Assembly (NCBI GenBank): GCA_009914755.4
Contig: CP086569.2
Location: forward strand, 31,936,001 to 32,000,000
DNA: 64,000 bases
Direction: 5' to 3'
Source of the DNA: the human T2T-CHM13v2.0 reference genome, Homo sapiens
Every line of letters starts with the position of its first letter. The first letter of the stretch is position 1. Both the position numbers and the translations under genes were made by a program. The notes below the pieces were generated by a model that was not told the origin of the DNA, searched no databases, and saw only the letters and a list, made by a program, of their open reading frames with translations. Below are positions 38,083 through 40,202 of the stretch, in pieces.

Positions 38083-40202
38083 ATATTTTTTAAATGAAAA
38101 AAAATTTCAAAGGTACTCTGCTTGGTACAATAATCAAATGTATAAACTGAGGAATAAAACATAACCATGAAACCTACTTATAACTGCATATGGAAAATAC
38201 AGAGGATAATTTTTTAAATAACATATTTTGAAAGCCTTAACTAGTAATTTGAAGAGTTGGCATTTGAAAGGCCAGTATGAATATACCTTCAAAGCAGCAA
38301 CACAGGTTCCCCATGAGAAAAAGCAAACACAGGGAAAATAAAAACACAAAGGTTCAATCTCTTCTGACCTTTGAAAGACACAGCACAGACAGTGGTCCTT
38401 AGGACGAAGAGCAGGAGACCCCTAATTCCGTCACCATGGCGATAGGGCATAAACATTGCTGGGTGAGGGCACAATCCACATTGTGAGGTCCAACTGCTGC
38501 CAGGAAGACAGGAGTGCTTTTACATAGACCGAAAGGTCATTGAAGGCTCAGAGTTTTGTTTCAAGAACTGAATCCCAAGCCCACACGTTATTAGGCTGCG
38601 CTTCCTAAATCAAGTTATGAGATGGGAAAAAGGGCACCCACAAACATACGTATACATTATGTATATAATAATATACAGTATCATATTTATAATATATATA
38701 ACCTATGTATAATATTGTTTTACATCCTGCATCTTATGTTATATATATTGTATAAAATATAATAATTGATAATATATGTTTTATATTTATACAATATAAC
38801 ATATAGTATATATTATAATTTATGACATATATAATATATGTTATATATCATATATAGAATATATTATACGGTTAATATACGTATTAAATATAAATTATAC
38901 ATTATATATATTATATATAATATATCTGTTATATATAATACCCATTATGCATAATATATATATTATGTCTATGTTATATATAGTATAGAACAACACATAA
39001 TAATGTATAATTGTATATATAAAATGCGACATATAATATATATTATATTTTATGACATATATAATATATATTATATATTATATATAATACGTTGTATGTA
39101 TAATACCTATATTAAATATATATTATATGACTATGTTATTAATTACATGTCACATGTGTTATATATTATATATTTTACATAGAATATTCCGGTTACATAC
39201 AATATATACTATGTTACCTACAATATATAATTGATTACATGTAAAATAAAGAATGCTATATATTATGTATAATTTATAATATACAATATGTGGAATGTGA
39301 TATATATAACATATAATATATGATATATGATATACAGTATATGATATATAACATACAATATATGATACCTAATATATATGGTATACAATATATATTTTAT
39401 GATATGTATTCTCTATGTTTTATATTCTGTTATATATAACTATTTGAAATTATATATAACTGTATAATATTTTATGTAAATATGTAATATAATATATATA
39501 ACTATATAATATATTATATATAACTATATATTATGTTATATATACTTTTATAACTTAATTTACATAAAATATCATAATATAATATATATTATATTGTTTC
39601 ATATTACATAATATATATTACATATCACCCAATATAAGTAACATACATAATATTATAATATAGATTATATTATGTTATATTAAATATCATATATATCATG
39701 TATCATATATTCTATAATATATATTACACATTATATAATATGTATGTTGTCTATTATGTGATATATATAACTATATATATAATTATATTATTATACATAT
39801 AACTAGATAAACATGTAATTCTACATATTTTCATTTATAATATATAGAATTATATAATCATATATAATTATTTATTTTCTATAAAAAATTATATCATTAT
39901 ATAAATTATAATATATAAAAATTATAACATGTACTACAAATATATATATTATATATCATATATGATATAGCACCTTTGTTATATATCATAATACATATAA
40001 ATGTGTATTATGTTATCTATAATTATAAAATTTCATATATAAGATGTATAATATGTATTATATATTATATATGTTATGTAATATATATAGTATATATAAG
40101 ATGACACAGGATAAATATTATATACTATGACATATAAAATATATGAGGTTATATGTTACATATAAGGCATAGCACATAACATGTAATATATATCATATAT
40201 AA
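37785..40202. repeat. Unit U16 (2418 bp), recombinant: A-type Alu + unique segment (like U13/U14) joined to a B-type AT segment
   Basis: Alu poly-T 37785 to next 40203. Alu has gaatcttg/aacttctg (A markers). AT part has gatacctaat, caatataagtaac, tatattattatacat, atatatagaattatat (B markers). Confidence 0.85.

What the first reader, a model, noticed from the sequence alone, without database searches (positions are those of the whole stretch)
38083..39600. Tract of about 1.5 kb re-appears 7,248 bp (3 units) downstream at about 45331-46850
The unique segment after the U16 Alu and the first kb or so of its AT segment share a string of otherwise private variants with the corresponding part of U19. 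These are gcttcctaaatcaag, atcatatttataat, aatatatgttttatatttatacaatataacatat, tatagaacaacacataataatgtataattg, tttatgacatatataatat, gaatattccggttac and ttacctacaatatataattgattacatg. The Alu copies upstream of these tracts are different (A-type versus B-type with a 3-bp deletion). The tract is therefore a gene conversion or duplication patch and not a whole-block duplication. It is an A-type island inside the B domain.
Basis: seen in the sequence. Interest (0 to 1): 0.5.

Follow-up and report, generated by a model that had tools for sequence, protein, structure and literature searches.

The report
Gene-conversion patch in DYZ2 satellite
Inside a tandem array of the human-type 2.4-kb DYZ2/HSat1B satellite, about 1.1 kb of one repeat unit has been copied into the unit three positions downstream; this is a clear but ordinary example of the gene conversion already known to homogenise this satellite.

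Summary
The window is a tandem array of 26 units of about 2,415 bp. Each unit has a diverged, 5'-truncated Alu on the minus strand, a GC-richer segment and an AT-rich segment. This matches published descriptions of DYZ2/HSat1B.

U16 (37785-40202) and U19 (45036-47450) are 95.3% identical over the Alu. They are 99.91% identical (1 mismatch in 1,125 bp) over 38129-39253 / 45377-46501, at an offset of exactly 7,248 bp. They are 98.4% identical over the rest. Eight derived variants found only in these two units all lie at 38610-39225. They are almost absent from 33 external copies.

The tract is 0.9-1.1 kb, not 1.5 kb. It ends at 39233-39254, not 39600.

The units in between are not duplicated: U17 vs U20 and U18 vs U21 differ by 2.8-2.9%. 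A block duplication is therefore excluded. The best explanation is an out-of-register, non-crossover gene conversion, probably from U16 into U19.

Gene conversion within DYZ1/DYZ2 arrays has already been inferred from pedigrees. This is a well-resolved instance of a known process. Interest is low.

The parts
38129..39253 (.). Tract in U16, the probable donor, at its maximal extent. The core defined by shared derived variants is 38605-39233. The probable extent using A/B-type markers is 38329-39233.
   Evidence: There is 1 mismatch to U19 in 1,125 bp. Shared derived markers lie at 38605, 38610, 38687, 38777 (a 2-bp deletion), 38798, 38988, 38996, 39005, 39061, 39188, 39221, 39225 and 39233.
45377..46501 (.). 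Tract in U19, the probable acceptor, exactly 7,248 bp downstream. The core is 45853-46481.
   Evidence: The same markers occur at +7,248. U19 has 1 singleton variant here, against 10-20 in its neighbours U15, U17 and U18.
46293..46293 (.). The only mismatch inside the tract: T in U19, A in U16 (39045) and in all other units.
   Evidence: It is read as a mutation that arose after the conversion. That reading is inference.
37786..38076 (-). U16 Alu subunit. It is A-type and shares 37983C, 37992C and 38006A with U13 and U14. It lies outside the tract.
   Evidence: It aligns to positions 12-288 of an AluY consensus at about 76% identity; the consensus was recalled from memory. There is a sub-threshold Rfam hit to mir-1268, which I know (not tested here) to be Alu-derived.
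45037..45324 (-). U19 Alu subunit. It is B-type (45052G, 45105A) and has a private 3-bp deletion after 45057 and six private substitutions within the Alu, plus 45376 just beyond it. It lies outside the tract.
   Evidence: It differs from U16 at 16 columns in 344.
39254..40202 (.). Right flank of U16. It carries 7 private variants (39257, 39555, 39596, 39876, 39928, 39971, 40028) that U19 does not share.
46502..47450 (.). Right flank of U19. It groups with U20 and U21 through shared variants at 46502, 47292 and 47406.
   Evidence: The nearest units are U20 and U21, each 13 differences away.

Best explanation
The window is a DYZ2/HSat1B satellite array, most likely human Yq12. About 0.9-1.1 kb of unit U16 was copied into the homologous position of unit U19 by a non-crossover gene conversion. 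The copied stretch comprises the GC-richer segment and the first ~0.6 kb of the AT-rich segment. The two units were paired out of register by three units (7,248 bp).

The likely route, which is inferred, is as follows. A double-strand break in U19 was repaired by synthesis-dependent strand annealing, using U16 on a misaligned sister chromatid or on the same chromatid. Copy number did not change. U19's own variants in the tract were erased and replaced by U16's private variants. One substitution (46293) arose afterwards.

Shown: the tract, its two boundaries, the derived state and rarity of the shared variants, and the absence of duplication of the units in between.
Inferred: the direction (U16 to U19), the repair pathway and the timing. 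The timing is roughly 10^3 generations, with a range of tens to several thousand, using a published Yq12 mutation rate.
For: - Identity profile: 95.3% / 99.91% / 98.4% across the three segments. Sliding windows show zero mismatches over 38129-39044.
- Eight variants exclusive to the pair are clustered in 616 bp (P = 5e-4). The fragment test gives P = 5e-5 and is the top result among 300 pairs.
- In the tract columns U16 is 16-45 differences from every other unit and 1 from U19.
- 33 external DYZ2 fragments, from contaminated bacterial assemblies and from metagenome and viral contigs, carry the other allele at these sites. The exception at 39005 is one fragment; at 39061 it is three fragments from two contigs. 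The shared alleles are therefore derived and rare.
- There is no block duplication: U17/U20 and U18/U21 are at background divergence.
- Direction. The marker 38605C is shared by U13, U14, U16 and U19. U16 also shares the Alu markers 37983C, 37992C and 38006A with U13/U14, and U19 lacks these. U16's private variants continue at similar density to the right of the tract and are absent from U19. U19 holds A-type states at three sites inside an otherwise B-type neighbourhood.
- Identity as DYZ2. Unit lengths are mostly 2,413-2,420 bp (2,413 six times, 2,420 five times). The unit has the three-part composition. 'ACATACG' sits at the junction of the GC-richer and AT-rich segments in 24 units. The Alu is 5'-truncated and roughly 20-24% diverged. 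All of this matches the descriptions read.
- Gene conversion inside DYZ1/DYZ2 has been inferred from father-son transmissions (PMC12240836; PMC13252187).
Against: - No pre-conversion state is available, so the event is inferred from one haplotype only.
- The direction rests on parsimony: one marker plus three A/B-type sites.
- U16 is itself a mosaic. Its first 820 bp are nearly identical to U13. A third, unsampled donor for both U16 and U19 therefore cannot be excluded.
- A tract of about 1 kb is longer than typical mammalian meiotic non-crossover tracts (own knowledge). It is within the range seen on the Y, where the median palindrome tract is 542 bp.
- I could not compare the window with a human reference assembly. 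The chromosomal origin (Yq12, an acrocentric short arm, or another ape) is not directly shown.
Confidence: 0.75

Rival explanations
1. The patch is a remnant of unequal crossing-over. Either a 3-unit (7.2 kb) tandem duplication was later largely overwritten, or two successive unequal exchanges had junctions inside the same unit, leaving U19 as a two-junction hybrid.
For: Whole-unit duplications at offsets of 1-3 units do occur in this window. U1/U4 and U2/U5 lie at the same 7,248-bp offset and differ by 3 and 7 per mille. U6/U7/U9, U22/U24/U26 and U23/U25 are also near-duplicates. Published work attributes Yq12 structure mainly to unequal exchange, and de novo gains or losses of 1-2 DYZ2 units have been observed.
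Against: U17 vs U20 and U18 vs U21 are at background divergence of 28-29 per mille. A single unequal exchange gives one switch point per hybrid unit, but U19 has two. Its left flank is a private B-type Alu seen nowhere else in the window or in the external copies. At least two extra events and an unsampled parent unit would be needed.
Confidence: 0.1
2. U16 and U19 each received the tract from a third DYZ2 unit, outside the window or since lost. Alternatively, the transfer ran from U19 to U16.
For: U16 is a mosaic. Columns 0-827 are U13-like (1 difference), columns 828-1453 are shared with U19, and the rest is private. The tract could therefore be foreign to U16 as well. Two of the near-exclusive alleles (38996C, 39233G) also occur in U18, and 39233G occurs in two external copies.
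Against: None of the 33 external fragments carries the haplotype. The marker 38605C links the tract to the U13/U14/U16 lineage. U16's private variants continue at similar density beyond the right boundary. This reading needs one more event than a direct U16-to-U19 transfer.
Confidence: 0.1
3. The patch is an assembly or polishing artefact. Reads from U16 were mis-placed on U19 and the consensus was 'corrected' to the U16 state.
For: Satellite arrays with units more than 97% identical are prone to read mis-mapping. This cannot be tested here.
Against: Thirteen consecutive markers over 630 bp switch together with sharp boundaries, and flanking private variants are intact on both sides. Long reads spanning a 1.1-kb patch also span the distinctive flanks. 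Short-read polishing would give patchy changes rather than contiguous ones (inference).
Confidence: 0.04
4. The shared variants arose by chance, through parallel mutation at hypermutable sites.
For: Some sites in the array are recurrently variable. Examples are 38687T, also present in U23, U24 and U26, and the 38777 deletion, also present in U21.
Against: Eight exclusive and five near-exclusive shared variants occur in one block, with no discordant informative site between them. Permutation gives P of 5e-5 to 5e-4. The Poisson probability of 1 or fewer differences, given 16 expected, is 2e-6.
Confidence: 0.01

Closest known systems
Interlocus (intra-array) gene conversion in the Yq12 DYZ1/DYZ2 satellites, inferred from de novo variants in pedigrees (Porubsky et al. 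2025, PMC12240836; population-scale Y preprint 2026, PMC13252187)
   Same: It involves the same satellite family and the same process: variants are copied between non-orthologous repeat units without any change in copy number. In one study 29% of Yq12 de novo SNVs had identical matches elsewhere in Yq12. In the other, 17% of Yq12 events were classed as gene conversion.
   Different: Those events were detected as single SNVs or small clusters arising in one generation, with donors inferred by search. Here an older, fixed event is resolved with both boundaries, a tract length of 0.9-1.1 kb, a donor 3 units away and a probable direction. It was not observed as it arose.
Arm-to-arm gene conversion in human Y palindromes P1-P9
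   Same: It is intrachromosomal, non-reciprocal homogenisation on the non-recombining Y. Tracts are hundreds of bp long, with a median of 542 bp.
   Different: Palindrome conversion acts between two inverted arms. Here it acts between direct tandem repeats paired out of register.
Unequal sister-chromatid exchange and tandem block duplication in satellite arrays (the classical Smith model; described for Yq12 in Rhie et al. 2023)
   Same: It also requires out-of-register pairing of repeat units. The same 3-unit register is seen for the U1-U2 / U4-U5 block duplication in this window.
   Different: A crossover changes copy number and duplicates whole intervening units. Here the intervening units are not duplicated and the patch has two switch points.
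Short-range conversion patches in alpha-satellite arrays (e.g. Schindelhauer & Schwarz 2002, Genome Res.; cited from my own knowledge, not read here)
   Same: Variant nucleotides spread between nearby repeat units by an intrachromosomal conversion mechanism.
   Different: It concerns a different satellite (171-bp monomers and higher-order repeats) and different tract scales.

Membership tests
DYZ2 / HSat1B satellite | Tandem unit of about 2.4 kb, with a modal length of 2,413 bp and a consensus of 2,420 bp | tested here: met
   The 25 complete units are 2,411-2,422 bp long. Length 2,413 occurs six times and 2,420 five times. The description is from Hallast et al..
DYZ2 / HSat1B satellite | Composite unit made of an ancient 5'-truncated AluY about 20% diverged, a GC-richer segment and a region of more than 85% AT | tested here: met
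   The Alu lies at 37786-38076 on the minus strand. It covers positions 12-288 of the consensus at about 76% identity; the consensus was recalled from memory. GC content alternates between about 0.14 and 0.40.
DYZ2 / HSat1B satellite | 'ACATACG' at the junction of the HSATI part and the AT-rich part | tested here: met
   The motif is present at unit offset 859, exactly at that junction, in 24 units.
DYZ2 / HSat1B satellite | Sequence identity to a reference DYZ2 consensus, and location in Yq12 | not testable with these tools
   No human reference is available. The indirect evidence is that the same unit occurs at 98-99% identity as short contigs in unrelated bacterial assemblies and metagenomes. 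That is the contamination pattern reported for HSat1B.
Non-crossover (ectopic) gene conversion | A tract of near-identity between two paralogous copies, bounded on both sides by clearly higher divergence | tested here: met
   Identity is 95.3% / 99.91% / 98.4% across the three segments. The fragment test gives P = 5e-5.
Non-crossover (ectopic) gene conversion | A contiguous block of derived variants shared only by the two copies | tested here: met
   There are 8 exclusive and 5 near-exclusive variants at 38605-39233. They are derived relative to 33 external copies.
Non-crossover (ectopic) gene conversion | No associated copy-number change or duplication of the sequence between the two copies | tested here: met
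   U17/U20 and U18/U21 differ by 28-29 per mille, which is background level.
Non-crossover (ectopic) gene conversion | Non-reciprocal transfer with an identifiable donor and acceptor | tested here: inconclusive
   Parsimony favours U16 to U19, based on marker 38605C, the A-type states in U19, and U16's private variants continuing past the boundary. A third donor or the reverse direction is not excluded.
Non-crossover (ectopic) gene conversion | A pre-event haplotype observed in a pedigree or in related haplotypes | not testable with these tools
   Only one haplotype is available.
Higher-order repeat or block duplication by unequal crossover | All units within the repeated block are similar to their counterparts at the same offset | tested here: not met
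   Only a 1.1-kb part of U16/U19 is similar. The neighbouring units at offset 3 are not.

The most novel reading that the evidence does not exclude
The three-unit (about 7.25 kb) register may be a preferred pairing register for exchange in this part of the array. Several pairs sit at this offset: the U1/U4 and U2/U5 block copies, U6/U9, the near-identity of the U13 and U16 left parts, and the U16/U19 patch. U16 would be a repeated participant, having exchanged with both of its third neighbours. This could reflect a latent 3-unit higher-order periodicity or a chromatin-loop spacing that guides the choice of repair template.
Probability: 0.08. Interest if true: 0.35.

Novelty: new member of a known kind. 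Interest (0 to 1): 0.15.

Why it matters
The patch is a cleanly bounded example of how this satellite is homogenised below the level of the repeat unit. It gives a tract length of about 1 kb, a donor-acceptor distance of 3 units, and no change in copy number. Such resolved tracts could help calibrate models of concerted evolution in Yq12 and the elevated apparent mutation rate reported there. However, the satellite, the process and its occurrence in this satellite are all already documented. No function is implied.

Tried and rejected
- Rfam at gathering thresholds over 35000-48000 gave nothing. At a permissive threshold the only hit was a sub-threshold match to mir-1268 inside the Alu.
- ORF listing found only two short minus-strand TTG ORFs of 61-71 aa in the GC-richer segment. 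There is no coding signal.
- Inverted-repeat scan at the tract boundaries. There are none at the left boundary. At the right boundary there are only the imperfect AT palindromes found throughout the AT-rich segment. This gives no evidence for a structure-specific breakpoint.
- An apparent 'TAA insertion' at the start of U19, with a matching 3-bp 'deletion' at the end of U18, came from my anchor-based unit boundaries. U19's 3-bp Alu deletion shifted them.
- I considered whether the dense private variants in U19's Alu are a mutation cluster linked to the repair event. I rejected this because U15, U17 and U18 have comparable or higher densities of singletons across their whole length. These are simply old, unhomogenised units.
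- A viral-contig scan with a second pattern found nothing. The first scan found only one chimeric 482-bp fragment.
- I looked for enrichment of the 3-unit offset among nearest-neighbour relations. Offsets of 1, 2 and 3 all occur, and there is no clear excess.

Full report
**What the window is.** The window has a strict periodicity of about 2.4 kb. GC content alternates between about 0.14 and 0.40. An Alu-internal anchor occurs 26 times with spacings of 2,411-2,422 bp. I numbered the units U1-U26.

Each unit has three parts:
- A diverged Alu on the minus strand, at 37786-38076 in U16. It aligns to positions 12-288 of an AluY consensus at about 76% identity, so it is 5'-truncated. The consensus was recalled from memory. 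The only Rfam signal is a sub-threshold hit to mir-1268, which I know (not tested here) to be Alu-derived.
- A GC-richer unique segment, to about 38640.
- An AT-rich segment of about 1.55 kb.

The motif ACATACG sits exactly at the junction of the GC-richer and AT-rich segments, at unit offset 859, in 24 units.

These features match the published descriptions of DYZ2/HSat1B:
- a unit of about 2.4-2.5 kb;
- 2,413 bp as the commonest length, and a 2,420-bp consensus that includes 'ACATACG' at the junction of the HSATI and AT-rich parts;
- a 5'-truncated ancient AluY about 20% diverged;
- a region of more than 85% AT (Rhie et al. and Hallast et al.).

I could not compare the window with a human reference. 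Exact-pattern scans did recover the same unit at 98-99% identity. It appears as short contigs in assemblies of unrelated bacteria (Mycobacterium, Bifidobacterium, Streptomyces, Azospirillum and others), in metagenome contigs and at the end of one IMG/VR contig. That is the contamination pattern Rhie et al. reported for HSat1B. Assignment to the family is therefore well supported. The chromosomal location, whether Yq12 or an acrocentric short arm, is not shown.

**Checking the observation.** I aligned all units with MAFFT (2,426 columns). U16 and U19 differ by 14 per mille overall. Each differs from other B-domain units by 21-35 per mille.

The differences are very unevenly placed:

| Segment (U16 coordinates) | Differences | Identity |
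|---|---|---|
| 37785-38128 (Alu) | 16 columns of 344 | 95.3% |
| 38129-39253 | 1 of 1,125 (39045/46293) | 99.91% |
| 39254-40202 | 15 of 949 | 98.4% |

There are no differences at all over 38129-39044. In the tract columns U16 differs from every other unit by 16-45 positions (mean 27.6), but from U19 by 1.

All seven marker strings are present in both units exactly 7,248 bp apart. Five are exclusive to these units. One is exclusive only at that position. One also occurs in U23, U24 and U26.

Eight variants are carried by U16 and U19 and by no other unit. They lie at 38610, 38798, 38988, 39005, 39061, 39188, 39221 and 39225. Five further shared variants are nearly exclusive: 38605, 38687, the 38777 deletion, 38996 and 39233.

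Three tests support the clustering:
- The chance that eight variable sites fall in so small a span is 5e-4.
- A GENECONV-style maximal-fragment test gives P = 5e-5 for this pair.
- This pair ranks first of 300 pairs in the window.

The stated extent is too large. No shared private variant lies beyond 39233. At 39254 U19 switches to a variant shared with U20 and U21. The stretch 39254-39600 has 6 mismatches (98.3%), no better than the rest of the unit.

The revised extents in U16 coordinates are:
- maximal: 38129-39253 (1,125 bp);
- probable, using A/B-type markers: 38329-39233;
- core, using derived markers only: 38605-39233.

Add 7,248 for U19 coordinates.

**Polarity of the variants.** I placed 33 external DYZ2 fragments into the alignment. 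At all eight exclusive sites they carry the allele of the other units. The exceptions are 39005, in one fragment, and 39061, in three fragments from two contigs. The U16/U19 alleles are thus derived and rare. The B-type states are derived, but they also occur in a few external copies, so B is a subfamily rather than something local.

**Not a block duplication.** True multi-unit duplications exist in the window. U1/U4 and U2/U5 lie at the same 7,248-bp offset and differ by 3 and 7 per mille. U6/U7/U9, U22/U24/U26, U23/U25 and U20/U21 are also near-duplicates. In those pairs the exclusive shared variants spread over half or more of the unit. For U16/U19 the partner units U17/U20 and U18/U21 are at background divergence of 28-29 per mille. 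U19 has two switch points. A single unequal crossover gives one switch point per hybrid unit and duplicates the intervening units. The pattern therefore requires a non-crossover event, or formally a double exchange within 1.1 kb. That is gene conversion.

**Direction.** U15, U17 and U18 each carry 10-20 singleton variants in the tract columns. These are old, unhomogenised units. U19 has 1 singleton there and U16 has 0, because U16's private variants there are the ones shared with U19.

Several points favour U16 as donor:
- U16's private variants continue to the right of the tract, with 7 between 39257 and 40028, and they are not in U19.
- U19's right flank groups with U20/U21, and its Alu is a private B-type.
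- The marker 38605C is shared by U13, U14, U16 and U19. U16 also shares the Alu markers 37983C, 37992C and 38006A with U13/U14, and U19 lacks these.
- U19 has consensus states at 45577, 45592 and 46404, where all neighbouring B units are derived.

The most parsimonious reading is U16 as donor and U19 as acceptor. The reverse direction, or a third donor, needs at least one extra event.

This is inference and not proof. U16 is itself a mosaic. Its first ~820 bp differ from U13 by a single site, and its A/B-type markers switch to B-type from 39367 onward.

**Mechanism and age (inferred).** The likely mechanism is homologous repair of a lesion in U19. The template was U16, on a sister chromatid or the same chromatid, misaligned by three units. 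The event resolved without crossover. Rhie et al. reported sister-chromatid exchanges in Yq12 in about 15% of Strand-seq libraries. Pedigree studies attribute 17-29% of Yq12 de novo SNV events to interlocus gene conversion.

With the published Yq12 rate of 3.86e-7 per bp per generation, one difference in 1,125 bp corresponds to about 1,150 generations. The 95% range is about 30-6,400 generations. This is only an order-of-magnitude figure.

**Other checks.** No convincing coding signal was found in the unit: only two short TTG ORFs of 61-71 aa. There is no structured-RNA family above threshold. There is no distinctive inverted repeat at the boundaries beyond the generic AT palindromes. An apparent TAA insertion at the start of U19 was an artefact of my unit boundaries. 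The dense private variants in U19's Alu are not unusual compared with U15, U17 and U18.

**Comparison with what is known, and verdict.** The satellite is known. Its homogenisation by unequal exchange and by gene conversion is known. Conversion inside DYZ1/DYZ2 has been inferred from transmissions. The median tract length in Y palindromes is 542 bp, the same order as here.

What this locus adds is one individually resolved, older tract with both boundaries, a 3-unit donor distance and a likely direction. I file it as a new member of a known kind, of low interest. An assembly artefact cannot be excluded with these tools. It is unlikely given the contiguous 13-marker block with intact private flanks.

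Noticed in passing
1534-6359 vs 8782-13605: U1-U2 and U4-U5 are near-identical whole units at the same 7,248-bp offset (3 and 7 per mille). U3 and U6 are not similar (17 per mille). This is a true block duplication of about two units, in contrast to the U16/U19 patch.
   Followed up: partly
52285-64000: U22, U24 and U26 resemble one another, and so do U23 and U25. This is a local two-unit (about 4.83 kb) alternating, higher-order pattern, with exclusive variants spread over much of the units.
   Followed up: partly
13606-23270: U6, U7 and U9 are near-identical (4-5 per mille). U8, which lies between them, is a different type (13-16 per mille).
   Followed up: no
35365-37784 (U15): U15 is a mosaic. 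It has B-type markers from 35381 to 36738. It then has A-type states from 36949 to its end, where it is closest to U11-U13 (6-8 differences). The A/B domain boundary is therefore interleaved across U15 and U16 rather than sharp.
   Followed up: partly
37785-38605 vs 30524-31344: The first ~820 bp of U16 (Alu plus GC-richer segment) differ from U13 by a single site and from U14 by two. The rest of U16 differs from U13 by 36 columns. This is a second sub-unit similarity at a 3-unit offset (7,261 bp) that involves U16.
   Followed up: partly
47972-48258 (U20) and 52806-53092 (U22): U20 and U22 share three exclusive variants (alignment columns 524, 804, 810). U21 between them lacks these, although U20, U21 and U22 all share the flanking variants at columns 441 and 825. 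This may be another small conversion patch affecting U21, or one between U20 and U22.
   Followed up: no
40203-45035 (U17, U18): U17 and U18 carry 33 and 36 singleton variants and are 27-38 per mille from every other unit. They look like old, unhomogenised units. That would fit a position near the edge of an array, as the literature describes for peripheral DYZ2 units.
   Followed up: no
L002-L012 (bacterial assemblies), L001 (IMGVR_UViG_3300008541_000063, 3-482): DYZ2 units occur at 98-99% identity as contigs of about 0.6-2.5 kb in assemblies labelled Mycobacterium, Senimuribacter, Bifidobacterium, Actinomadura, Streptomyces, Chromatium, Azospirillum, Sphingobium and others. One also forms a 482-bp chimeric end of a 'viral' contig. 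This is human contamination of public records.
   Followed up: partly
L014, L021, L032, L033 (BNJT01002008.1) and L017 (BNJU01004413.1): Two ~54-kb metagenome contigs hold tandem HSat1B-like units that are only 80-97% identical to the window's units. They may be divergent (perhaps acrocentric or peripheral) HSat1B arrays, or noisy long-read assemblies.
   Followed up: no
37889-37955 (-): There is a sub-threshold Rfam match to the mir-1268 precursor (33.9 bits against a gathering score of 83) inside the Alu subunit. This is expected from the Alu origin of that miRNA family and is not evidence of a gene.
   Followed up: no
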